The position numbers and the translations under genes were made by a program. Shown here in pieces: positions 25,901 to 61,300 of a stretch of 64,000 nt of DNA. The number at the start of each line of letters is the position of its first letter. Position 1 is the stretch's first letter. Source of the DNA: a virus; IMG/VR virus record IMGVR_UViG_3300032257_000004, positions 27,317-91,316 of that record; one strand, given 5' to 3'. Below the pieces are notes generated by a model, which searched no databases, was not told the DNA's origin, and saw only the letters and a program-made list of their open reading frames with translations.

Positions 25901-28172
25901 CGAATTCCGTGTTGTTGCCCTGTTCGAACAACTCCAGACCGCTGACCGATGGGGCGGGAATAGGGGAGGTAGATTCGACCGTGATCGTGCCCTCGACCGG
26001 AGTGGAGGACAAAACTCCAAACACGTTCCGGGCGTACACCCGAACGGTATAGGTGTCCGCGTATGGGAAATCGATACGAGCGCTATTGGAGACCGTAGTT
26101 CCCAACTCTTTCCACTCGGGATCGCCAGTTCGGCTGTAAGTGATGAAATACCGGTCAATGTACCGATCGTCGGACTGCGACCAGCCAATGTCGATATAGT
26201 CGTCCACCGCTTGGGGGCTAATTACTTCGATCTGGCGCGAAAGCGAAATAGTGGACGGAGGGTCCATCTTGTTCATCGCGGGGAGTTTGGTGTAACTCTC
26301 GACCGGGAAGTCGATGCCCTCTTCTACCGACGCGAATTTGTCGTTGTTGTATTCGAGAGCAGTGACTTCGTAGCACTTGACTTCGTTGACTTCAACTTCG
26401 CGGATGGACAGAACCCGGTACTGCGGTAGAGTAACGTCCGTGCCAAGAATAGCGAAAGCCTCACCAACAAGCGGAGTTCTACTAGGAGAGCCCAACATCA
26501 CTACGGTGTCAGTCGAAGTAGTTCCCGGATTGGTCAGATTCACCAGTTCTGGAGCGCCCGATGCGTCGAGTACAGAGATTTGGTAAGTTTCGCCAGCGTC
26601 GAAATCGTAAGCTTTGTCCAGCGTCAGAGTGGAACCCGAAACGCCTGCAATCCGGCCAGCGTTGCGAACACCTAGTCTTTCAGGGTCCGACAAACGGATG
26701 ACCGAACCGGGACGGACGTTCAGGTGGTCAGCGTGGCAGACGTACGAGACCGTTTCGGTTTCGTTGAGTTCGGAATAAATGATCCAGCGAGCGGCCCGGT
26801 GAGCCATTGCTCTGGAGGTACAACCGTGGAGAACAACGTCTTTGCGACGATAACCCAGCGTGGCGATGCCGACACGGTCCTCTACTACTTCGACTGCGGG
26901 CCGACCAAAATTGTTGGGGTCGGTCCAAGTGACGAACACAGCAGTGTGGCGCGCTTTTTTAGCCGATTTCTGGTATCGGAACATCCCGCCGATAACGCGG
27001 GTCTGGTTGACTTCGATCTCCGGAGATTTCGGGCTATCCTGAATCAGAGTGACCGAACCCGAACCCCAGTACATCATACCACGGAAGGTGGAGGCCAGAA
27101 CGTTCAGAACTTCCCAAGCTTCCCTCTGCTCCTGAATTACGCCTTTAAACGTAAACCGGGGTTCAGTTCCGCCTTGTCCATCGTCCACGTTTCCGTCGCA
27201 ATAGACGCCGATATTGTACACGGCCCATTTGTCGACATTCGATATACCCAGTTCTTCGCCCAAGCCGTATCGATCGTGAGTCGCTAGATCGAACCAAATC
27301 CACGCGGGGTTGGAAGTGATGGCCTCGATGAAAGTACCATCCCATATGCCGGTATAAACCCGAGTCGCAGCGTCGTAGTTGCTTGGGACCTTAACTTTCC
27401 GGCCCTTCAGGCGATACGCGCGCTTTGGTGGCTGCGAACCAAACTGCTGCGCGTCAATTTCGATACCAATGAGGGCGGAATCCGGGTATGAAAACTTGGA
27501 CTCGTTGATGGCAGTGTACGAAGACCATATCGTGCCATTCTGGATGTCGATGGTCTCCGAATCCGGAGTAATACGTTGGACTTCGAGCGTGTAAGTGTCC
27601 GTCCCCGGAAGTTCCAAATAGTAGGAGCGTTCGTAGGGGGATGTGGTTTTGCCGGATATCGTGACGGTCTGTTCGGTGATGACGGAGCCACCGGGATTGG
27701 TTTTCCAAATGAATTTAAGGGAAACCGTGGTGCCCGTGATAACTTGCTCTTCCTGCTTAACGTGCTGGAGACCGGTAACTTTAATTGCGAGACGCAGGGC
27801 GTCCATTGTCGATCCATCGATCGATCGAGTGACAGGAATCGCGGCTTTGACTTCAGCCCCAACCGCGATGGTAGCTTCGGCCTCAGAGAATCCCGGAATA
27901 GAGGTCTGATCGGGCAGACCCTCTCTAGTTACCCACCTGAAGCCTTGGAAGTTGTACGAATCGTCGGAATTCTGGAGCGGAACTTCATTCAAGTAAATAG
28001 ACTTGGCACCATCGACCAGACCGCCGATTTCGCCTTCCGACACAAGGTCGATAATCTTTGCTTTGGACGTTGACCGAAGAGTGTTCGGGGCCTCTCGGAC
28101 CCCACCCTCTCCGGTGCTGCCTTTGCCTTTGCGGCCAGTAAGTAAGTCGAGGTCTGGATATTGATCTCTCAC
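13980..28172 (-). CDS. giant tail tip protein: gpJ-like N-terminus, FN3-like region, beta-helix (depolymerase-like), fibre repeats, C-terminal S74 chaperone
   Basis: LRSTSKAKIIDLVSEGEIGGL (gpJ-like); VIFAPPGTYRF..LYGSG (pectate-lyase-like helix start); repeats HTHTIANVTGLQTALDGK and GNFTPGNYLPLAGGTMTG; SDRRVKGNIE. Confidence 0.9.
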   Translation of the reverse strand: MRDQYPDLDLLTGRKGKGSTGEGGVREAPNTLRSTSKAKIIDLVSEGEIGGLVDGAKSIYLNEVPLQNSDDSYNFQGFRWVTREGLPDQTSIPGFSEAEATIAVGAEVKAAIPVTRSIDGSTMDALRLAIKVTGLQHVKQEEQVITGTTVSLKFIWKTNPGGSVITEQTVTISGKTTSPYERSYYLELPGTDTYTLEVQRITPDSETIDIQNGTIWSSYTAINESKFSYPDSALIGIEIDAQQFGSQPPKRAYRLKGRKVKVPSNYDAATRVYTGIWDGTFIEAITSNPAWIWFDLATHDRYGLGEELGISNVDKWAVYNIGVYCDGNVDDGQGGTEPRFTFKGVIQEQREAWEVLNVLASTFRGMMYWGSGSVTLIQDSPKSPEIEVNQTRVIGGMFRYQKSAKKARHTAVFVTWTDPNNFGRPAVEVVEDRVGIATLGYRRKDVVLHGCTSRAMAHRAARWIIYSELNETETVSYVCHADHLNVRPGSVIRLSDPERLGVRNAGRIAGVSGSTLTLDKAYDFDAGETYQISVLDASGAPELVNLTNPGTTSTDTVVMLGSPSRTPLVGEAFAILGTDVTLPQYRVLSIREVEVNEVKCYEVTALEYNNDKFASVEEGIDFPVESYTKLPAMNKMDPPSTISLSRQIEVISPQAVDDYIDIGWSQSDDRYIDRYFITYSRTGDPEWKELGTTVSNSARIDFPYADTYTVRVYARNVFGVLSSTPVEGTITVESTSPIPAPSVSGLELFEQGNNTEFEGKDAVFTWRRASGMAQSPGAERFGGDSSSTDPLFQHYQVDVRDGNGNLLRREFVTDNFYTYTYENNFDDNNGAPLRSFEVEVSYVNRYNEVGRTESLTVTNTKPALPDVTITASYREIYFDYLEPNDPDFRGMIVWADTSPSVSTTDGNVVFKGPGKPSFSASADTTYYYKYAVYDEFGTDGLVASDEGSITTLEPIDDIPDGSITLTKLAGTVQDEINRVMEIGKSVIPPGISGGVNGDAYFHKNELTTGADDGEIRVSNGVDDGGDGWFNHPTLGRIDETGTNGQIFHTPFNILTPWEGSTVPRGERFYIMYSNSDWSSRFGGGLTDPATGNAYVGVVTYDDVNDQWYAHDNTNTAGVAFTPANTDVLLAVGTKESVSGGIDSMRSLVGVNAPLEQRVSNTEILVGDAGDTADAGGSVYARIAQEILGRQNGDTALAYRLDTVEAGAVLPNLTDVHPDLVWQWNDGTGSGDATSKASVTTALANNGIEITATADTGQIYAGWALSADQQAAVDWERVRYAVVVMEFVSGQADIPVTPEFNWRSGTNNGGAWLHAVNKNENAYYETGKMYTFVFDLEGSTDAGAVAWGTADPTVWWIAPADSSDQTTNDKWRIHKSAFVAYGDLSYSETKARADIFQEALFDGGTSTATIMLQTQAGTGNANTVARAWLTSRAGGDGALMSEIGFQADDFSIWNSNAAANLPVFQVTGTKIRMDATNVEIDGNLLVAGTVSAAAMNVGFSRNLVQNSDFSADFSSIKIGTNANVTKTFESAAEGTAFGSEQALVLTSTAADQTDNAGPGDASGANRHDYDVTAGEKYEASVYAQATNAGNAQLVVQFYSAYAGGYLSGEDFTYSNTTASTDGTLANMDRLGGVFTVPATAVRMRILLNGLSLENTEVAKFRRLMVSKATANQTVLSDWTPAGGTRIDGQGIVADSITGTHIFAESEIKIGSDANSFVGLSGNSSYDWRIWAGSFLGAGAPFSVDKNGHVTMRSFTLMDDVGNIILRSGEIPEYLRSQIFSKQNYSTKQITGKLNNNLDFYTITLDDDIDDVRVAARHAVYDVLIQSNTPPATITIEIWHTTSDPDGQNDAWWTANATKIANRDYTKVATAGATANQFDVNTFPGASLFGEPATDYYQIKNVSKSDHNDTSVPDSDTFSQYVYDQTDTEATYTAGTHYFRVKVYDAEGDIEAADSDKLGREIVLLATGSGSFILEDSGDTTGSAGEENTFTHLTDTPLNYSGSRRNVPMVEDVSSPGRMFFKSVSEISRVYSLWDFDIRPENSATVNQGNYEDMLARIRDVADELYTSSGAKAVIFAPPGTYRFDDVVFLPESIMLYGSGQNSTTFLFEGSVADAAFCLEPYNVNGYNAGAAFKDFSITTSGVWDEAIKVAWPDLQTGISVTNETGNFSADDVIFTSTDGTWANRTWTAQITSYDGATSRFFVTNEDYDPRSVGVYSPVAGDEIYNNDDTGEAIWFDRNIAFVNESRVYAEHINIYGTGVGNYFKKGIMLKNVAYYDLKSIRYIGSNADATHGSPVYYDGTAIDITTQIDADDNSHGQSLEGHIDHLTASDCNIGVNIFGFPEGQYISHSNIVRARIGITATAKTGTTQPSLVVHHNHINAASMAMQIDGYSQFHVDSNSFSYWNDATVEASFNGQAFIGLNVINDGDPAYTEEGIIIGNTFVTESIPSGKTGNVTHLYVDADHTIVDHNQFIGDANGDNTVNNAILIAGGSGSYVGHGNRFTNNIDTNVADTSGNANDIAYWRHTISGKNTSVGGEVEFKPKTDGSYSAFIGQLGNDGMLSMRDHEGNIRFNMFRQGQLEFKDTSGNNRLIINDAGTLIMYDESGHEAFNIGDTDIVLTSGHGLNMGGGTVHNAGGFILAGGGSETVPIMRLATGTTQTGPFWNGNDDYRISVEGTALFAAYGTEVYTKNGLFALDDTDTGIDFHSAGRMDFQADGQDKLRVQVANVAVVNVPLYVGKSGIQGGDIQFQAPSDNDHIMYLRHSNNGQFAVQSYDAGDVDFEFDYHIIANRSSSVNLYYNNVDVAATHSGGLEALTSFVVRGTSSQLYEDNLQLGPGIFAVRDSDTQGRLIADGGTALTWTDAGGTLTGAWNVTSSLTVGGTAVSVAGHTHTIANVTGLQTALDGKVALAGDTMTGTLVAPTVNLTSTSSLQYSGANRIKFGASLTQFVNSSIYAARISGAGAQIQLQGPSGAYVGYLNHAANGQIAIQSYDGSAIETMANFYQGGGVDLFYDTAIKLSTTSAGGTLTGTWNATTALTVGGTAVSLAGHAHAISDVTGLQTALDGKAASSHTHTIANVTGLQTALDGKSDTGHTHSYLPLAGGIMSGVLDMDGQRIDLDADNDTYIYSSADDTINFYAGTVENMIINANVVRARYAGVDRLITAIDGTTVNSIGTYGARIILENQSGTRTWGLVSPIGADQFVLQDIITAKNYLAANKNGSTAIYYDGGIRAETTSAGGTLTGTWNATTNLQIGGASVATQTWVSSQGYTTGGPFLPLTGGTLTGRLVVDGGTSNGLSGDGGGVYIQVNDQDFCVWDSTDGVTNIIWRDHSAGLLYLGTADAIVTLRSDFDLNGNRIVGMGTSTWHTDDDTDGRLQFVLNGDNLYAGAASGAGHEFYAHDGTADHIRLDPANFRIYPSGADSNTYWERHVADAQRWIAGGNVNLSIDANRVYLQYQGNVIAQTYSDRLQLMETASVGGKIRFEGHGTNTDWTIVAQPDPANQLAFTNLLGSGASYLMFDDDIQTTYLYGGNSVRIAANSAGVVGYGAWTFDSNVTCNGQINVANHLNSRMLGMIWADMSSDAGGYGVFGGNLYANWDGAAVSYRTSLTHASVGYGALRFGYGNAQVATFSGATTAGATVTPTWNTLWHSGNFTPGNYLPLTGGTMTGVLTASAGAKIVVQNGTDGGSTRGLFMWTSADTNWGIYMAQSGSGKALNGGYAPTSLDGQTYHHIRFRVANNNSQGFIWENGGDTTLMSLSGSSGVLRAKSEIYANATNLVWHAGNFTPGNYLPLAGGTLTGALNATSGISLFYTTTGQTIEAATGQIATQLQIYQPTSGTDALMCFHVAGNYAAYFGLDGSRNDFVVGGWSMGTTSYKIFHEGNFTPGNYLPLAGGTMTGALINTNSNSRFAGLSIGADTDIYLYEGSPNDFVVRTGASGSNKYFTFTGGGDFLFEGHIRMSNADPYIKRTVNDGYLVLSGGSGWTETSSTVVLRGISTGTNPGGIEFNGGNGGAGEAIFNTFARVKINGSTSIDHTIWHTDTNGADRTYYISGGQTYFKAPNGLFYYRRGDDTDGIVLDAANAAIYPNWSSDSNTYLRWGGADIIDLVTGGYINFTVDANRAYLKYQSTTVAQTVADALKLMRTGSLGGKLSIQGFTSQDDWTLAAQGSGSNLLSLVNATTTKIAWQALTAGPVQIFSGDNAVANITSASNGAVIGGANRSMQVGEYGASYTGLMTTGGVYRLVFDSTLADTTTYLTGQNGVRILANNGDHTDRFDVAPDIQVHRVDDVEIGMWQPSALTVRRDYAGTTQVLVQNAATGGAGQAIIYGGSIYIQHIAYQSGSAYMQSNASSALYMGGTGAATIYLRQNGATRLTINSTTSTFSTDLTVDGGARIGTTVGQYGALLTARGASAGDAFEWGHGNTAGYGSVLGYESGTGRPFIGFSAGHGTSTASSYRTFGLKGSVLRGNLAGGFEFCSVDTTTADNQTATVRATINTSGLIIPTGKYVISDYLWAAVNNATGFNLATAHQITATCNSTDVMLLSTSGITALPVGSTGGSIILEGESGQSDWLWAQNNSQCTIGNETDLCILMRENSGNSDVLLYFNNLKKFQTTTSGITVTGTVNETSDRRVKGNIEDITNGMDFIRSLNPRKYFNFLTQSYEEGFVAQEIEKVGPWLVQNPTEPDDYMTMNYKGLIAPMVKAIQEKDDEIQDLKSEVDQLKAQIAMIKKAVGLD

Positions 28173-40693: not shown

Positions 40694-41611
40694 TTATACC
40701 GCGACGGCGGCGTTGGTGATACCTTGAAGACGACCGGCAGAACGACCGTGGTACAATGCCACGCCCGAGTACCACTCAACCCGAGTACGGAAGACTGGCT
40801 TCGACTCAAGTTCTCCAAGATCGCGGGCATCAATCCCACCGTTCTCAATACCAACGAGGTGGTTTTCGGAGAACGACGTACAATAGATTGATGTGCTGGT
40901 GGAACCACCGCCTGAAGATGCTTCAGTGAACGGGAGGATTTGATTGCCCTCTTCGTCCTCGTCCAAAATCAGGATAGGAAGTTCAGCGTAGTACGATTGG
41001 CGACGGCCAAATTCGTCTTGTTCGAAGGTGATATAACCACCAACGCTGGTGTTCCGAGACGCTTGAGTCAGACGCCGACGCATCGACTTGTTCATGATCA
41101 AGTGTGTTGGATTGTCGACGGAGTCAATGAGTTCGTCGAGGTTTGCCAGAGACAGTGCACCACCGGTAGCATGGTTAGTTACCAGTTGGTTTCCGCCAAG
41201 ACGTTGTTGGAGGCCATCAAATTCGCGCGGGTTAGTACCCGAATCGCCTTTGATGAACGCTTTGCCCCAACGGAGGGCCAGAGCGCGAACCTTCATCGCT
41301 TCGTGGGTTGATCGCTGGTCAGCGCCCATGGTGTCAACGATGAATTTATCGACATCCAAATCGCCACCGGCAATAGTCAGGGTTTCAACACGCGGGTTCA
41401 AGACACCTGTGGACTCTGTGAAACCTTCGTTCACACCACGGAATCCAACTCCCGGCAGTTTGTCTTCGCGGTTATAGCGAAGTGCGTTGCCTTCGATTCC
41501 CTCGAAAGGGAGGACGCGAAGTACATCGCTGTTGCGGGCATAAAGCTCGATGATCGCGGATCGAACCACGTCACCAGAATGGAGCTTAGCCGCTTCTACC
41601 AAAGTGAGCAT
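40694..41611 (-). CDS. major capsid protein
   Basis: MLTLVEAAKL...LPGVGFRGVNEG...EFDGLQQR; position after scaffold. Confidence 0.9.
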   Translation of the reverse strand: MLTLVEAAKLHSGDVVRSAIIELYARNSDVLRVLPFEGIEGNALRYNREDKLPGVGFRGVNEGFTESTGVLNPRVETLTIAGGDLDVDKFIVDTMGADQRSTHEAMKVRALALRWGKAFIKGDSGTNPREFDGLQQRLGGNQLVTNHATGGALSLANLDELIDSVDNPTHLIMNKSMRRRLTQASRNTSVGGYITFEQDEFGRRQSYYAELPILILDEDEEGNQILPFTEASSGGGSTSTSIYCTSFSENHLVGIENGGIDARDLGELESKPVFRTRVEWYSGVALYHGRSAGRLQGITNAAVAV

Positions 41612-52939: not shown

Positions 52940-52977
52940 GGAGAGTATTCGGTCAACAGAATGTATTGAACCCCATC

Positions 52978-53006
52978 TTGATGTACCTATCCACCTATGG
53001 TATGGT
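52978..53006 (+). promoter_or_regulatory. tmRNA promoter
   Basis: TTGATG-17-TATGGT. Confidence 0.6.
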
Positions 53007-53012
53007 GATCTC

Positions 53013-53075
53013 GCTTTTTATGAGGCTCCTAGCTATTGCCACTGGACGCGGGTGCAATTCCCGCCGCCTCCACCA
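53013..53075 (+). ncRNA. ssrA: two-piece tmRNA, acceptor piece (5' end approximate)
   Basis: T arm GCGGG-TGCAATT-CCCGC, then CGCCTCC-ACCA; pairs with GGGGGCG at 53255, including the G3:U70 Ala determinant. Confidence 0.9.
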
Positions 53076-53254
53076 TGAATGCACCTAGAAGGGGTTTAGT
53101 CGGCTAAGGCTAACCGCTTCGAACATACTAAGCCGTCCGGTGTTAGTCCACTGGAAAACAAAGCGGCGGGACGCTAATCCCGCAGATGCCACTCCCCCGG
53201 CTGGGTGGCCTTCCCGTTGGGGATGTAGCTTAAGTAGTACGGTGCGTTCTTGAT

Positions 53255-53428
53255 GGGGGCGAATTAGGTATCGACAGGGTAAGATCGAAGAGAAGAGAAA
53301 GCCGGGTGAGGCCCGCTATAGGCTCAAATTCAATAAATGTCAACGATAACGACATTGTGGAGCAGGAGCAGCTTCTCGCTGCGTAACGTTTCCGGGGCAA
53401 GGGGGTGCCTAGCAACAGAAACCCCCAC
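53255..53428 (+). ncRNA. ssrA: two-piece tmRNA, coding piece; tag (A)VNDNDIVEQEQLLAA
   Basis: GGGGGCGAA...TCGAC 5' end; tag frame 53339-53386 after ATAAAT; GCAACAGAA 3' motif. Confidence 0.9.
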
Positions 53429-53460
53429 TTAATAGCAATCGGTGTAGCGCTGCACCGCTA

Positions 53461-58185: not shown

Positions 58186-58470
58186 ATGGCTCGTGAATTT
58201 AAAAAAGCACCATTCGCGGAGTTTGAAGACGCCTCCGTTCGGACCGGCATGAACATGGCCGACCTTTGTGAATCGATGGGGTATTCCCCCGGCGCGTACA
58301 GTGGGTGGCAGAAAGACGACTGCATTCCGTACGTGGCTTCAGTCGCTCTGCGCACCATAGTGGCCGAACACCTGAAGGTGGCGATGATCTACGTTCCAGA
58401 GGCCGACTTCGAGACGGTGCGGAAAATTGTTATCGGGTGCGGGGGGACTTTCCGCACGGTACGGATTTGA
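58186..58470 (+). CDS. putative HTH DNA-binding protein
   Basis: GMNMADLCESMGYSPGAYSGW resembles a Cro/XRE HTH. Confidence 0.55.
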   Translation: MAREFKKAPFAEFEDASVRTGMNMADLCESMGYSPGAYSGWQKDDCIPYVASVALRTIVAEHLKVAMIYVPEADFETVRKIVIGCGGTFRTVRI

Positions 58471-58545
58471 GAATATAGCTCAGCTGGACAGAGCAGCCGA
58501 CTTCTAATCGGCAGGTCGGGGGTTCGAATCCTCCTATTCTCGCCA
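58469..58545 (+). tRNA. tRNA-Arg (anticodon UCU)
   Basis: Cloverleaf: GAGAATA/TATTCTC acceptor, D arm, GCCGA-CTTCTAA-TCGGC, GTTCGAATC, encoded CCA. Confidence 0.95.
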
Positions 58546-59201: not shown

Positions 59202-59477
59202 TCAATGGACTGTAACCTCAGTTAGAAAACACTGTTTATTGACATCGTCCCCAATTAGGATCGACACTGGCACCCCATCGTCGCCATAAGCGAACACCTC
59301 AAGGGTGGGCTGAAACGAACAACTACTGGTAGATTGAGGCTTTACGGCTTCAAGAAGGAATAACCGAGTACTTCCACGATCAGTAGTAAACGTGAACGGT
59401 GTGCCCTGCTTGGCCGTTTTCAGTGCTTCAAAAGCTTTCATGCCCTTAAGGCTACCACGGAGACGTGCTGTCCGCAA
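59202..59477 (-). CDS. hypothetical protein (start uncertain)
   Basis: 91-aa ORF. Confidence 0.4.
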   Translation of the reverse strand: MRTARLRGSLKGMKAFEALKTAKQGTPFTFTTDRGSTRLFLLEAVKPQSTSSCSFQPTLEVFAYGDDGVPVSILIGDDVNKQCFLTEVTVH

Positions 59478-59493
59478 GTCATGTCATGTCATT

Positions 59494-59579
59494 CAACCCA
59501 ATTGCACCCAAATATTTCTGAGATATTTTAAAAAAGAAAAAAAGAAATATATTATACCCAACCCAATTGCAACCAATAT
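59494..59579. repeat. direct repeat CAACCCAATTGCA(C/A)CCAA(A)TAT flanking an A-rich tract
   Basis: Copies at 59494-59515 and 59559-59579. Confidence 0.7.
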
Positions 59580-59624
59580 CCGTAGTCCTTGCGGTCGTTA
59601 TACGCCCCGCGCGGCCCCCGCCGC

Positions 59625-59653
59625 TTGCGCGGGGGGCCGCGCTGTGCTACGAT
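59625..59653 (+). promoter_or_regulatory. promoter for the U-less RNA, -35 inside an inverted repeat
   Basis: TTGCGC-17-TACGAT with TG extension; inverted repeat 59609-59642. Confidence 0.7.
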
Positions 59654-59659
59654 TCGGGA

Positions 59660-60113
59660 GTCGGGCGGCGCAGCGCCCCCGGCCCCCGCCGGGGGGAGCC
59701 CCGGCCCCGCCCCCGGCCCCGCCGGAGGCGGGCGGAGAAAGGAGCAGAACGACGCCAGACCAGACGGACCCCGCGAATCGCGGCGAGCCACCAGCACCCG
59801 GAGCCGAACCGAAGCCCGACCCCCCGCCGAGAGGCGGCAGGCAGAGCCCAAGGCAGACCGACCGGGGCCCCCCACGGGGGGAGGCAGACAAGGGAGAGAA
59901 CACAGCCGGAGACCCCCGGCGCGAGGCCCCGAGAGGGGCGGAGCGCAGGCAGGACCGGCGACCGAGGGAGACCGAACCGCCCCGAACCGAGAGGACGCGA
60001 GACAGCCACGCAGGCAGACCACCGCCCGAGCCGCGAAGCGCGAACACCGAAGGCAAGGCAGGCAAGGCCCCACGGGAAAGCAAAGCCGAAACGCCGCACC
60101 GACACGCGGCGTC
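59660..60113 (+). ncRNA. putative ~454-nt uridine-depleted structured RNA released by hammerhead 1
   Basis: Only one T (59778) in 59662-60111; bounded by a promoter and a ribozyme cleavage site. Confidence 0.65.
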
Positions 60114-60152
60114 CGCATGGGCGGGCCCCATGCGCTGACGAGGCATCCCGCC
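60085..60152 (+). ncRNA. hammerhead ribozyme, type II (HH1); cleavage after C60113
   Basis: GCC-GAAA-CGCCGC/GCGGCG-TC-CGCATGGG/CCCATGCG-CTGACGA-GGC; GGCGGG (60120-60125) can pair with CCCGCC (60147-60152). Confidence 0.88.
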
Positions 60153-60180
60153 GAGCAGAACCACAACGAAGGACGACATC

Positions 60181-60678
60181 ATGTCGAATGCAACCGAAGC
60201 ACAAGGCGAGTGCACAAACGCCACCCCCGAAGCCGAGGCGCACGATCCGAAGCGCCCCATCCGGAACATCTCCGCGATGAAAACCCCGGCGCTCCGGAAG
60301 CGCCTGCAGGACGCGGGCTTGGACGTGGCCCCACGGGCCAATCGCGCCCGCCTGATTGAGGCGGCACGGGCCGCTGGCCTTTGGCGCTACGATGGCGACC
60401 AAGTACCGGCCAAGTACAAGGCCAAGTACGGACGCACCCAATCGTGCGACGACGACGTGGCCACGTCGCTCAAGGACGCAGTCACCGGAGCCGATGGCTC
60501 CTGCGATCTGGACGCCGTCCGGAACGTGGCGATCGCGAATGACATCGATCCCAAGCGCTGGGGCCACTTGAACGTGGGCATGCAGCGCATGAATCTCGGG
60601 AATGTCCTGAGGGCGATGGTCAAGCGCGGTGAGTACGTCATCGTGGGCACTTCGGAGTGGAATCCGGAAGCCGCCTAG
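60181..60678 (+). CDS. first early gene after HH1; hypothetical
   Basis: ACAACGAAGGA RBS; paralogous domain in 10783-11232. Confidence 0.8.
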   Translation: MSNATEAQGECTNATPEAEAHDPKRPIRNISAMKTPALRKRLQDAGLDVAPRANRARLIEAARAAGLWRYDGDQVPAKYKAKYGRTQSCDDDVATSLKDAVTGADGSCDLDAVRNVAIANDIDPKRWGHLNVGMQRMNLGNVLRAMVKRGEYVIVGTSEWNPEAA

Positions 60679-60741
60679 GCCAACCACGGAGAGCGGGGGC
60701 GAGAGCCCCCGCGATCCAATCAACCAACGAAGGAGAATACG

Positions 60742-60966
60742 ATGCAGATGATGATTGTTGTTGACGCCGCAATACACGGCGACGTCGAGATGGGGCGATC
60801 TTTTGCCGCCCAACTCGGATGGAAACCAGAACTCCAGCAGGAAGTGAATCCGAAGATCGGATACTTCCAGCTGGTAGTGCCTGAATACATCGCAGACCAC
60901 ATAGCCGAATTCGGATGGATAGAGTTTAGCACTCCGAAATTCCGAATCGAGATCACGTGGCCCTAG
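60742..60966 (+). CDS. hypothetical early protein
   Basis: CAACGAAGGAGAA RBS. Confidence 0.7.
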   Translation: MQMMIVVDAAIHGDVEMGRSFAAQLGWKPELQQEVNPKIGYFQLVVPEYIADHIAEFGWIEFSTPKFRIEITWP

Positions 60967-61035
60967 ATCGAAACCAAGGCGAGCGCGCGAATGCGCTCGC
61001 TGCGGTCTGCAGGTTGGTCCTGCACTGACGAGATC
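60966..61035 (+). ncRNA. hammerhead ribozyme, type II (HH2); cleavage after C61007
   Basis: GATC-GAAA-CC..GGCGAGCGC/GCGCTCGCT..GG-TC-TGCAGG/CCTGCA-CTGACGA-GATC. Confidence 0.88.
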
Positions 61036-61054
61036 AGTAACGAAGGAGAATGAA

Positions 61055-61300
61055 ATGAATAGAATCCAAATAGAGCGCGATAGCGCCGAATGGGATCGGA
61101 CGCTCGCCTTTCAGGAGGCGTTCATTCAGTGGTTCGGCATCGCCGGATTTGCGCTGATTTTTATTGGCGGAGCCGGAGCGATCATCTTCGGAAGCAATCA
61201 CATGGTCGGCCTGACTATCTGGTCGATGTGCGTTGCCTTCGTTGGCGTGGCGATGTTGATGCTGACGCCTTATTGGCGCACGATTGCGGAGAGCGACTAA
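61055..61300 (+). CDS. small membrane protein
   Basis: Two hydrophobic segments; AACGAAGGAGAA RBS. Confidence 0.7.
   Translation: MNRIQIERDSAEWDRTLAFQEAFIQWFGIAGFALIFIGGAGAIIFGSNHMVGLTIWSMCVAFVGVAMLMLTPYWRTIAESD

What the first reader, a model, noticed from the sequence alone, without database searches (positions are those of the whole stretch)
59625..60152. A ~450-nt uridine-free RNA bounded by a promoter and a self-cleaving hammerhead
Seen in sequence: 59662-60111 (450 nt) has exactly one T on the + strand (59778), and 59779-60111 (333 nt) has none. The run starts just after a good promoter (TTGCGC-17-TACGAT, predicted start ~59660). It ends at the obligatory U of the GUC cleavage triplet of a complete type II hammerhead (cut after C60113). 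It is rich in short GC hairpins (CCGCC-GAGA-GGCGG, GCCCC-GAGA-GGGGC, CCCCCC-ACG-GGGGG) and carries eight AGGCA(G/A) motifs (59839, 59851, 59882, 59947, 60012, 60051, 60056, 60060). Established: hammerhead cleavage leaves a 2',3'-cyclic phosphate on the upstream product. Inference: the phage makes a discrete, almost U-less RNA as a very early transcript. Possible roles: (a) a nuclease-resistant decoy or sponge, lacking the U needed by RNase E or U-containing toxin RNase sites, with repeated protein-binding motifs; (b) a template strand essentially free of A, and therefore of Z in this purZ phage, letting host RNA polymerase start transcription or genome entry on unmodified template; (c) a very stable R-loop with no rU:dA pairs. 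It also has almost no possible start or stop codons. I know of no described equivalent.
Basis: partly seen in the sequence, partly recalled or inferred. Interest (0 to 1): 0.95.

Follow-up and report, generated by a model that had tools for sequence, protein, structure and literature searches.

The report
Uridine-free self-cleaving phage leader RNA
A 91-kb phage that probably writes its DNA with 2-aminoadenine starts its first early operon with a conserved, folded, non-coding 450-base leader that contains almost no T (no U in the RNA) and is cut off by a hammerhead ribozyme; I found no natural RNA of this kind described, and its function is unknown.

Summary
Window 59662-60111 has one T in 450 nt; the next-longest T-free run in the 91,316-bp genome is 45 nt. 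No A-, C- or G-free run exceeds 46 nt.

The tract is non-coding on both strands. It is kept, with 2-6 T, in two independent metagenome relatives, and its core is 87-91% identical, higher than the adjoining gene. It folds into G-C-only hairpins, several capped by GAGA loops, with compensatory changes.

It lies between a promoter that fits this phage's own early-promoter consensus and an Rfam-significant, covarying type II hammerhead that cuts after C60113. No sigma-70-type promoter can lie inside a T-free stretch, so the tract should be transcribed together with the ribozyme. This gives a ~455-nt RNA with about 3 U and a 2',3'-cyclic phosphate end.

Why U (or template A/Z) is excluded is unresolved. 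I lean to a nuclease-proof trans-acting RNA; a Z-free template is the main rival. Similar non-homologous non-coding tracts occur in other PurZ phage contigs and in none of about 3 Mb of control phage DNA, but they are absent from most cultured Z phages.

Earlier notes of this scan report mirror-image (adenine-free sense strand) early leaders on other DNA. No expression data could be obtained.

The parts
59202..59441 (-). Small divergent gene (79 aa from its ATG). It has its own promoter-like site: TTGCGG 59477-59472, 17 nt, TAGCCT 59454-59449. The ATG lies only 7 nt after the -10, so the mRNA may be leaderless.
   Evidence: tblastn gives 60% identity to L002. Promoter scan. No Pfam or PHROG hit.
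59478..59600 (.). AT-rich control region between the divergent genes. It has direct repeats AATTGCA(C/A)CCAA at 59500-59511 and 59565-59576, and a sigma-70-like site TTTAAA-17-TATTAT at 59527-59555 on the + strand.
59604..59647 (.). 21-nt inverted repeat (GCGCGGCCCCC-type box in both orientations) overlapping the -35 and the spacer. It is also the longest A-free run of the genome (59603-59648). In L002 the same hairpin is followed by a U-rich tail and so looks like a terminator.
59625..59653 (+). Early promoter TTGCGC-17-TACGAT with TG before the -10. Predicted start about 59659-59661.
   Evidence: Same -35 as 7 of 12 and same -10 as 2 of 12 boxed early promoters of this genome. The TTGCGC-N17-TnnnnT geometry is conserved in L001, L002, L098 and L155.
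59662..60111 (+). T-free tract: the body of the predicted ~455-nt U-free leader RNA. It is non-coding.
59745..59995 (+). Conserved structured core: 87% column identity over three phages, and 91% for 59760-59885. It is built of G-C-only helices. The hairpins are 59771-59783 (the lone T lies in its loop), 59824-59837 (GAGA loop), 59868-59882 and 59926-59939 (GAGA loop).
   Evidence: RNAalifold gives 54 pairs, 5 of them with compensatory changes.
59996..60083 (+). Variable 3' part of the tract. It has indels of 2-37 nt between relatives but stays almost T-free. It holds the AAGGC/AGGCA repeat cluster at 60050-60068.
60084..60152 (+). Type II hammerhead ribozyme: GAAAC, stem III, GUC 60111-60113, stem I, CUGACGA, stem II. 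The predicted cut is after C60113.
   Evidence: Rfam RF02276 at 41.6 bits. Conserved in L001 and L002 at 46-47 bits. Three compensatory pairs in stem I.
60181..60678 (+). First early gene (P0001, 165 aa), with RBS AAGGA at 60169-60173. Its family is a marker of PurZ phages.
   Evidence: Substitutions show a third-codon-position excess, p about 1e-8.
60693..60712 (+). GAGA-capped G-C hairpin after P0001. Its counterpart in L002 is followed by a T run, like a terminator.
60966..61035 (+). Possible second hammerhead (GAUC/GAUC stem II, GAAAC, GUC, CUGACGA by eye).
   Evidence: Read in the sequence. Not reported by Rfam at E <= 1.

Best explanation
The tract is the body of a non-coding leader RNA of the first rightward early operon of a PurZ-encoding (probably 2-aminoadenine, 'Z') phage.

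How it is made. Host RNA polymerase starts at the promoter 59625-59653. It transcribes about 455 nt that fold into G-C-only hairpins, several closed by GNRA-type GAGA loops, joined by A-rich single strands carrying repeated GGCAG/AGGCA motifs. It then transcribes a type II hammerhead. The ribozyme cuts after C60113. This releases the leader with a 5' triphosphate and a 2',3'-cyclic phosphate end. The mRNA of P0001 is left with a 5'-OH and a hairpin.

Constraint. Selection keeps T out of the sense strand. That means U out of the RNA and A/Z out of the template.

Mechanism I commit to (inferred, about 35-40%). The released RNA is a long-lived trans-acting RNA, a sponge or scaffold for a protein that binds the repeated single-stranded motifs. 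U-lessness makes it inert to U-dependent endonucleases (RNase E needs U near the cut; many toxin RNases cut U-containing sites). It also removes all start and stop codons and any hairpin-plus-U-tract terminator.

What is shown: the composition, the conservation, the non-coding nature, the covariation, the promoter fit and the ribozyme. What is inferred: transcription, cleavage in vivo, stability and the trans function.
For: Composition and uniqueness in the genome.

Conservation. The tract, with 2-6 T, is present in L001 and L002. The core is 87-91% identical, against 64-69% amino-acid identity for P0001.

Non-coding.
- No 3-base periodicity (p 0.4-0.9).
- Substitutions are spread evenly over positions mod 3 (p 0.26-0.98), against p about 1e-8 in P0001.
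- Indels of 1, 2, 7, 10, 13, 28 and 37 nt.

RNA structure. 54 consensus pairs, 5 with compensatory changes, and GAGA loops.

Promoter. It fits the genome's own consensus. Its leader is 527 nt, against 19-42 nt for 10 of the 11 other + strand early promoters found by the same scan; one has 335 nt.

Hammerhead. Significant, conserved and covarying. Its stems are also U-free in L001/L002: 4 U in all, 3 of them in the GUC triplet and the CUGAUGA box.

Logic. A stretch without T cannot hold a TTG...TAnnnT promoter, so the conserved ribozyme must be reached from upstream of 59662.

Motifs. AGGCA occurs 8 times against 1.1 expected. GGCAG occurs 7, 5 and 4 times in the three phages.

Precedent. Hammerheads flanking phage genes, and one just upstream of a first early gene with a mapped 5' end at the cleavage site, are in print (PMC3088659).
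Against:
- The fold is no more stable than shuffles (z -1.36).
- Only three sequences support the covariation.
- The AGGCA motif is poorly kept in L001 (1 copy).
- In L098, L155 and L109 a T-free 5' leader runs straight into the start codon of a P0001-like gene with no hammerhead. There the U-less part is not released, which argues that U-lessness is tied to the promoter-proximal position rather than to a free RNA.
- An RNA-level reason does not explain why such tracts turned up only in PurZ phage DNA in my samples.
- It also does not explain why the promoter element is A-free on the same strand in four of five relatives.
Confidence: 0.5

Rival explanations
1. Z-free reading track. The constraint acts on DNA, not RNA. 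In Z-DNA every A is 2-aminoadenine. The template strand of the first transcribed ~450 nt is kept free of Z so that unmodified host RNA polymerase can clear the promoter and elongate on the incoming genome. In relatives the non-template strand of the promoter, which sigma reads, is also Z-free. The RNA structure would be a second, separate function.
For: - All phages with the neighbouring gene family are PurZ+: 21 of 21 IMG/VR records at least 90% complete and 8 of 9 cultured Z phages. None of 33 complete control records is PurZ+.
- Non-homologous non-coding-like T/A-free tracts of at least 100 nt occur in about 7 lineages of PurZ-associated DNA: the window clade, L098/L155, L083, L078/79, L048, L131/G003 and phage OH.
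- None was found in 2.2 Mb of random loci plus 0.98 Mb of complete PurZ-negative genomes, although these have higher G+C. A rough conditional binomial gives p about 0.004.
- The promoter element is A-free, with hexamer TTTTCT, TTTCCT or TTTTTT, in L001, L002, L098 and L155.
- T rises gradually after the tract: 0.05.13.17.21 per 300 nt. Third-position T in P0001 is 0.10, against 0.22 +/- 0.05 in the genome.
- From my own memory, unchecked: Z in a template was reported to impede T7 and human RNA polymerases (Tan et al. 2022).
Against: - Other early promoters of the same architecture in this genome drive short leaders with ordinary T: 3-15 T in the first 60 nt of the 12 examined and 19-42 nt to the start codon for 10 of 11.
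- The window's own -10 (TACGAT) contains A.
- P0001 itself contains T.
- In L001/L002 about 60-70 nt after the element contain T.
- Long tracts are absent from phiVC8, SH-Ab 15497, PMBT28 and PSA28, where the longest is 63 nt or less.
- At whole-genome level the excess is not significant: 2-3 of 22 against 0 of 22.
- It does not explain the 87-91% sequence conservation.
- Earlier notes of this scan report three-letter early leaders in other mobile elements, with the opposite base missing.
Confidence: 0.22
2. Cis-acting leader only. The folded U-free RNA works while still attached or nascent. It could be a transcription insulator or spacer that cannot terminate (no U tracts), cannot be translated and offers no Rho or RNase E entry. 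The hammerhead then simply trims it away to give a defined, stable mRNA end.
For: - Hairpin-rich RNA without U cannot form intrinsic terminators.
- The phage uses GAGA-capped hairpins with T runs elsewhere as terminator-like sites.
- Hammerhead trimming of phage transcripts is known.
- T-free leaders without a ribozyme exist in L098, L155 and L109.
Against: A spacer needs no 87-91% conserved core. Ten of 11 other promoters of the same type in this genome manage with 19-42-nt leaders.
Confidence: 0.15
3. DNA element for replication or R-loop formation: an origin or primer site read on one strand.
For: It lies at the divergence point of two gene arms. An A-free segment abuts the T-free tract, so that both strands are T-free reading outward. 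This is also seen in L002 and L098.
Against: - No G/C skew (169 G, 175 C).
- A 2',3'-cyclic phosphate end cannot prime synthesis.
- GNRA loops and the ribozyme point to an RNA on the + strand.
- By reasoning, in Z-DNA rA:dT is weaker than dZ:dT, so this RNA is a poor R-loop former.
Confidence: 0.05
4. Hidden adenine-free gene on the - strand, like the A-free genes noted earlier in this scan, or a mutational skew of the GRINS type.
For: - All six frames are open, including a 417-aa - strand ORF.
- Another PurZ phage (G010/L011) does have an RBS and an ATG leading into an A-free frame.
- GRINS are published intense-skew elements (PMC8256042).
Against: - No codon periodicity, no third-position excess, and frame-breaking indels.
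- The 42% amino-acid identity of the - strand ORF to L002 is what the antisense of conserved DNA gives.
- The tract is single-copy, non-coding and has no GC skew.
- A T-to-C drive would leave C well above G, which is not seen.
Confidence: 0.03

Closest known systems
Hammerhead-flanked genes of phages and prophages (Perreault et al. 2011, PMC3088659), including HHphage of haloviruses HF1/HF2 just upstream of the first early gene
   Same: A type II hammerhead sits in a phage early transcript, a few tens of bases before a start codon. A possible second ribozyme lies after the next gene. Processing would give the mRNA a defined 5' end.
   Different: Nothing there describes the upstream product as a long, conserved, folded RNA, nor any exclusion of one base.
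Protein-sponge RNAs such as CsrB/RsmY/RsmZ (own knowledge)
   Same: A few hundred nucleotides, many short hairpins, and a repeated short motif between or on them.
   Different: Those motifs are GGA in loops and the RNAs contain U. GGA is not enriched here by my rough count. The motif here is GGCAG/AGGCA and no partner is known. Membership not met.
Transcripts that avoid a nuclease site, for example ACA-less mRNAs that escape MazF, and laboratory G-less or U-less cassettes (own knowledge)
   Same: Removing a sequence element or a whole base changes how enzymes see the transcript or the template.
   Different: Those are engineered or avoid a 3-5-nt site. Here a whole base is missing from a natural non-coding RNA. 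ACA itself is present in the tract.
Adenine-free early leaders and genes noted earlier in this scan (e1-3505284, e1-3274779, e1-2620685; unchecked AI notes)
   Same: Three-letter sequence at the very start of an early operon of a mobile element, conserved across lineages and undescribed.
   Different: There the sense strand lacks A and mostly codes for protein. Here the sense strand lacks T and is non-coding.
[quoted passage not shown] 2021, PMC8256042)
   Same: Extreme strand-specific base skew over hundreds of bases.
   Different: GRINS are repeated, lie inside coding genes and promote gene conversion. This tract is single-copy, non-coding, has an AT skew only, and is conserved as a folded RNA.

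Membership tests
Hammerhead ribozyme type II (Rfam RF02276) | Score at or above the curated gathering score | tested here: met
   41.6 bits against 37 in the window. 46.0 and 46.9 bits in L001 and L002.
Hammerhead ribozyme type II (Rfam RF02276) | Catalytic core (CUGANGA, GAAA, cleavage triplet GUH) and three stems with stem II open | tested here: met
   GAAAC, GUC 60111-60113 and CUGACGA are present (CUGAUGA in the relatives). Stems I and III are hairpins and stem II is closed by the flanks.
Hammerhead ribozyme type II (Rfam RF02276) | Stems kept by compensatory change | tested here: met
   3 of 8 stem I pairs changed on both sides between the window and L001/L002.
Hammerhead ribozyme type II (Rfam RF02276) | Self-cleavage activity | not testable with these tools
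   Needs in vitro transcription.
Any described RNA family for the tract itself (Rfam 15) | Covariance-model match | tested here: not met
   No family at the gathering score. Even at E <= 1 over 59300-61300 the only match besides the hammerhead is a 19-bit chance hit.
Sigma-70-type early promoter of this phage | TTG(C/A)(C/G)N, 17 nt with a GC-rich box, TG, TAnnnT | tested here: met
   TTGCGC-GGGGGGCCGCGCTGTGC-TACGAT. The -35 and -10 hexamers recur at other early promoters. The box is an inverted variant. Activity was not tested.
Protein-coding gene (either strand), including the scan's adenine-free genes | Codon periodicity, third-position substitutions and frame-preserving indels | tested here: not met
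GRINS | Repeated copies within a genome, location in coding sequence, combined GC and TA skew | tested here: not met
   The covariance model finds only this copy in the 64-kb window, and the genome has no other T-free run above 45 nt. Non-coding. G 169 against C 175.
CsrB/Rsm-type sponge RNA | Many GGA motifs presented in hairpin loops | tested here: inconclusive
   By a rough hand count GGA is not above expectation. The enriched motif is AGGCA/GGCAG. No Rfam Csr/Rsm match.
Z-genome (PurZ) phage | PurZ, with an HD-type dATPase next to it | tested here: inconclusive
   The best NCBIfam hit is PurZ NF038379 at 237 bits, below its cut-off of 300 but above the best PurA model at 172. The neighbouring HD protein hits only a 5'-deoxynucleotidase model weakly. 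There is 36-41% identity to PurZ of phiVC8, SH-Ab 15497 and ZP6. The base composition of virion DNA is not testable here.

The most novel reading that the evidence does not exclude
In 2-aminoadenine phages the incoming genome offers the unmodified host RNA polymerase a dedicated Z-free track. The strand that sigma reads at the first early promoter, and then the template strand of the first few hundred transcribed bases up to the first early gene (a PurZ-phage marker protein), are kept free of Z. If so, the U-free RNA is the footprint of a DNA-base-modification problem, and the first sign of how Z-DNA is first transcribed.
Probability: 0.2. Interest if true: 0.9.

Novelty: categorically new. 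Interest (0 to 1): 0.8.

Why it matters
If the RNA is made as predicted, it would be a natural, conserved, folded RNA written in three letters (A, C, G). It would have helices of G-C pairs only and ends set by a promoter and a ribozyme. Nothing in Rfam or in the papers I could search resembles it.

Base exclusion as a selected trait points to an agent that acts on U in RNA, or on A/Z in a template strand, at the first moments of infection. Either answer would be new biology. One is a new way for a phage RNA to be invisible to host RNases, ribosomes and terminators. The other is the first clue to how host RNA polymerase copes with 2-aminoadenine DNA.

It also offers a design principle for very stable, translation-silent RNAs. 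Together with the mirror-image adenine-free early leaders noted elsewhere in this scan, it suggests a wider unrecognised class of three-letter early regions in mobile elements.

Tried and rejected
Tools that gave nothing:
The Logan contigs of the close homologues P0003 and P0005 could therefore not be fetched.

Searches for more relatives or family members:
- blastn of the region against cultured phages gave only a 53-nt chance hit.
- Exact-pattern scans for the conserved core gave 12 chance hits in IMG/VR and none in GTDB genomes.
- A covariance model of the 127-nt core found no homologue in about 2.1 Mb of PurZ-phage loci and cultured Z-phage genomes. The other T/A-free tracts are therefore not the same RNA.

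Rejected readings:
- A coding reading on either strand.
- Tandem-repeat or iteron nature: only short local repeats.
- Extra thermodynamic stability beyond composition: z -1.36.

Tracts that turned out to be coding:
- Many T/A-free tracts in related loci, and all those in control DNA, are coding low-complexity sequence. They include K/A/E-rich tails of the P0001 family, collagen-like repeats and scaffold-like N-termini.
- The Bm1 and BCSR129 tracts are coding tails.

Neighbouring proteins:
- Pfam, PHROGs and NCBIfam gave nothing for P0001 and its neighbours.
- Foldseek against PDB gave no match. VIA-align gave only weak LEM/SAP-like (Z 4-4.8) and other helical matches.

Literature: searches for uridine-free or thymine-free tracts and for transcription of Z-DNA found no relevant description.

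Correction of an earlier idea: I first thought the tract promoter lacked the spacer box. It carries an inverted variant, so I dropped the 'box-less immediate-early promoter' argument.
Full report
**1. The observation**

Window 59662-60111 is A105 C175 G169 T1, with the single T at 59778. The exact T-free runs are 333 and 116 nt.

The window is the last 64 kb of a one-contig, 91,316-bp virus record. Its ends overlap, so it is a complete circular or terminally redundant assembly. In that genome the next T-free run is 45 nt. The longest runs free of A, C or G are 46, 38 and 37 nt.

The chance of at most one T in 450 nt is about 1e-49 at the genome's T content.

**2. A real, conserved, non-coding feature**

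*Relatives.* The gene just downstream (60181-60678, P0001, 165 aa) has close homologues. Two metagenome contigs carrying it could be fetched, L001 and L002. Both have the same layout:
- an A-free element;
- a 391-454-nt tract with 2-6 T;
- a type II hammerhead;
- an AACGAAGGA ribosome-binding site;
- the gene.

Three independent assemblies exclude an artefact.

*Conservation.* The central 250 nt are 87% identical over the three phages, and 127 nt of them are 91% identical. The protein next door is only 64-69% identical. The 3' third of the tract is variable, with indels of 2-37 nt, yet it stays nearly T-free.

*Coding is excluded on both strands.*
- There is no 3-base periodicity (p 0.4-0.9). 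Truly coding T-free tracts give p below 1e-4.
- Substitutions fall evenly on the three phases (p 0.26-0.98). In P0001 they pile up at third positions (p about 1e-8).
- Indels of 1, 2, 7, 10, 13, 28 and 37 nt break any frame.
- The 417-aa - strand ORF matches L002 at 42% identity, as the antisense of conserved DNA would.

**3. An RNA on the + strand**

*Structure.* RNAalifold on the core gives 54 pairs, all G-C except one U-A in L002. Five pairs changed on both sides. Several hairpins are closed by GAGA, a GNRA-type tetraloop. The lone T of the window sits in a hairpin loop. The fold is not more stable than shuffled sequence (z -1.36). The evidence for structure is therefore covariation and loop type, not energy.

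*Hammerhead.* The site at 60084-60152 passes Rfam's curated threshold here and in both relatives. It has the full core and shows three compensatory pairs in stem I. In L001/L002 it contains only 4 U, three of them in the GUC triplet and the CUGAUGA box. Avoidance of U therefore continues through the ribozyme stems.

*Promoter.* The upstream promoter is TTGCGC-17-TACGAT with TG before the -10. It fits this phage's own early promoters. Twelve of these share TTG(C/A)(C/G)N-17-TAnnnT with a GC-rich spacer box; seven have TTGCGC and two have TACGAT. A stricter scan finds 12 such promoters on the + strand including this one. Its spacer holds an inverted variant of the box. A second copy upstream makes a 21-nt inverted repeat.

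*Leader length.* From the -10 to the start codon is 527 nt. Ten of the 11 other + strand promoters in the stricter scan have 19-42 nt; the eleventh has 335 nt.

*Inference.* A stretch without T cannot contain a TTG...TAnnnT promoter. The conserved ribozyme must therefore be transcribed from upstream of 59662, together with the whole tract. The predicted product runs from about 59660 to C60113. It is about 455 nt with three U, a 5' triphosphate and a 2',3'-cyclic phosphate; the end chemistry is established for hammerheads. The mRNA keeps a 5'-OH and the ribozyme hairpins.

*Precedent.* Hammerheads that flank phage genes, and one 13 nt before the first early gene of haloviruses HF1/HF2 with a mapped 5' end at the cut, are published (PMC3088659). 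The ribozyme part is therefore known. The upstream product is not.

*A caveat on the promoter.* In L001 and L002 the homologous element has the hexamer TTTTCT. In L098 it is TTTCCT and in L155 TTTTTT. All are at exactly 17 nt from TTGCGC. In L002 the preceding hairpin plus U-rich tail scores as a terminator. A second, AT-rich promoter-like site lies upstream at 59527-59555. Either start would still transcribe the tract.

**4. Context: PurZ phages**

*The phage is probably a Z-genome phage.*
- The window encodes a PurA-family protein whose best NCBIfam model is PurZ. It scores 237 bits, below the strict cut-off of 300 but above the best PurA model at 172.
- It is 36-41% identical to PurZ of phiVC8, SH-Ab 15497 and ZP6.

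*The P0001 family tracks PurZ.*
- Every IMG/VR record that is at least 90% complete and carries a P0001-like gene also carries a PurZ homologue, 21 of 21.
- Eight of nine cultured PurZ phages have the P0001 C-terminal motif.
- None of 33 complete control records has PurZ.

*T/A-free tracts in PurZ-associated DNA.* Across 157 loci around P0001-like genes (1.72 Mb), tracts of at least 90 nt free of A or T are common. Tracts free of C or G do not occur.

Many are coding. They encode K/A/E-rich tails of the P0001 family itself and show strong periodicity.

Others look non-coding:
- L098, with two abutting tracts (A-free, then T-free);
- L155;
- L083, L078/79 and L102-like arrays of T-free repeats;
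- L048;
- L131/G003;
- a 114-nt tract near the right end of Ochrobactrum phage OH.

In L098, L155 and L109 a T-free 5' leader of 85-130 nt follows the same TTGCGC-N17 element. It runs into the start codon of a P0001-like gene without any hammerhead.

None of these is homologous to the window's core.

*Controls.*
- 249 random GC-rich IMG/VR loci (2.2 Mb) and 22 complete PurZ-negative genomes (0.98 Mb) contain only coding low-complexity tracts.
- Counting about 7 lineages against 0 in similar amounts of DNA gives a rough p of 0.004.
- At the level of complete genomes the difference, 2-3 of 22 against 0 of 22, is not significant.
- phiVC8, SH-Ab 15497, PMBT28 and PSA28 have nothing longer than 63 nt.

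The link to Z genomes is therefore suggestive, not established.

*Earlier notes.* Earlier notes of this scan report the mirror image on other DNA: sense strands without A at the start of early operons of phages and plasmids, mostly coding. I saw one such case here. In G010/L011 an RBS and an ATG lead into an A-free frame.

**5. How it most likely works**

*Shown:*
- the composition;
- the conservation;
- the non-coding nature;
- covarying G-C helices with GNRA caps;
- the promoter fit;
- a conserved ribozyme.

*Inferred: everything about function.* The high sequence conservation calls for an RNA (or single-strand) function beyond mere lack of T. The strict lack of T is a second constraint.

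*Leading reading (about 35-40%).* The released leader is a very long-lived trans-acting RNA.
- Without U it has no RNase E-type sites and lacks the U-containing sites of many toxin RNases.
- It has no start or stop codon in any frame, and no terminator after its many hairpins.
- Its cyclic-phosphate end should hinder 3' exonucleases and polyadenylation.
- The repeated single-stranded GGCAG/AGGCA motif could bind a protein: 8 AGGCA against 1.1 expected, and GGCAG 7, 5 and 4 times in the three phages.

*Main rival (about 20-25%).* The constraint is on the template: a Z-free track for the host polymerase. It fits several observations:
- the PurZ association;
- the A-free promoter hexamers;
- the T-free leaders that are not released in other phages;
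- the gradual return of T after the tract;
- the low third-position T of P0001.

It is weakened by several others:
- other early promoters of this genome have short, T-containing leaders;
- there is A in the window's own -10;
- there is T in the first 60-70 nt after the element in L001/L002.

*Minor readings.*
- A purely cis-acting spacer or insulator (about 15%) does not explain the conserved core.
- An origin or R-loop role (about 5%) is unlikely. There is no G/C skew, a cyclic-phosphate end cannot prime, and in Z-DNA rA:dT would have to displace dZ:dT (reasoning).
- A mutational origin of the GRINS type (PMC8256042) is unlikely. The tract is single-copy, non-coding and conserved. T was replaced by G and C equally, not by C alone.

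**6. Novelty and limits**

Rfam has no family for the tract. Full-text searches found no description of U-free or T-free natural RNAs or tracts, nor of how Z-DNA is transcribed.

I rate the ribozyme as a known kind. I rate the three-letter, conserved, folded leader as new in kind.

Limits:
- only three sequences;
- classification of the distant tracts rests on periodicity and inspection;
- the host is unknown. The window's tmRNA is of the alphaproteobacterial permuted type, which hints at an alphaproteobacterium.

Noticed in passing
window 60181-60678 (P0001) and loci L003-L157: The P0001 family, with its invariant C-terminal motif HLNxGxxRMNLGNVLR, looks like an unrecognised marker of PurZ (Z-genome) phages. 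All 21 complete IMG/VR records carrying it have PurZ, and 8 of 9 cultured PurZ phages have it, among them phiVC8, SH-Ab 15497, PMBT28 and ZP6. None of 33 complete control records has PurZ. It often occurs in 2-3 paralogues with K/A/E-rich tails. There is no Pfam, PHROG or NCBIfam hit. The AF2 model (pLDDT 80) has a weak LEM/SAP-like helix-extension-helix at residues 29-69.
   Followed up: partly
window 60966-61035: A second hammerhead-like element (GAUC/GAUC stem, GAAAC, GUC, CUGACGA) lies after the second early gene. It is plausible by eye, but Rfam does not report it even at E <= 1.
   Followed up: partly
window 59439-59477, - strand: The divergent 79-aa gene has a promoter-like site (TTGCGG-17-TAGCCT) whose -10 ends 7 nt before the ATG. 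Its mRNA may therefore be leaderless, as with phage repressor genes.
   Followed up: no
window 59604-59647: The GC-rich box found in the spacers of this phage's early promoters occurs here twice in inverted orientation. One copy is upstream of the -35 and one is in the spacer. Together they form a 21-nt palindrome, a likely operator. In L002 the same hairpin is followed by a U-rich tail.
   Followed up: partly
G010 27821-27956 (= L011/L085 9236-9371): In another PurZ phage an AGGAGG RBS and an ATG lead into a 136-nt adenine-free frame. It would encode a small protein made only of F, L, S, C, W, P, R, V, A and G. This resembles the adenine-free genes noted earlier in this scan.
   Followed up: no
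L001 1-160; L083 4534-5035; L078 427-602; L102 5580-5734: Arrays of short tandem repeats whose units all lack T on one strand (for example ACCAAGAAACCCAGAC and GAAGGCA-type units) lie in non-coding parts of PurZ phage contigs.
   Followed up: no
Ochrobactrum phage vB_OspP_OH (L407) 41011-41124: A 114-nt tract with one T lies in the unannotated gap between the last gene and the 55-bp terminal repeat of this cultured PurZ phage.
   Followed up: no
window 52974-53429 and 58469-58542: The phage carries a two-piece (permuted) alphaproteobacterial-type tmRNA (Rfam 99-104 bits) and a tRNA. The tmRNA type hints at an alphaproteobacterial host.
   Followed up: no
window 60693-60712; L002 2726-2747: G-C hairpins capped by GAGA recur outside the tract, for example after P0001. 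In L002 that hairpin is followed by a T run, like a terminator. This is the same hairpin style as inside the U-free leader.
   Followed up: no
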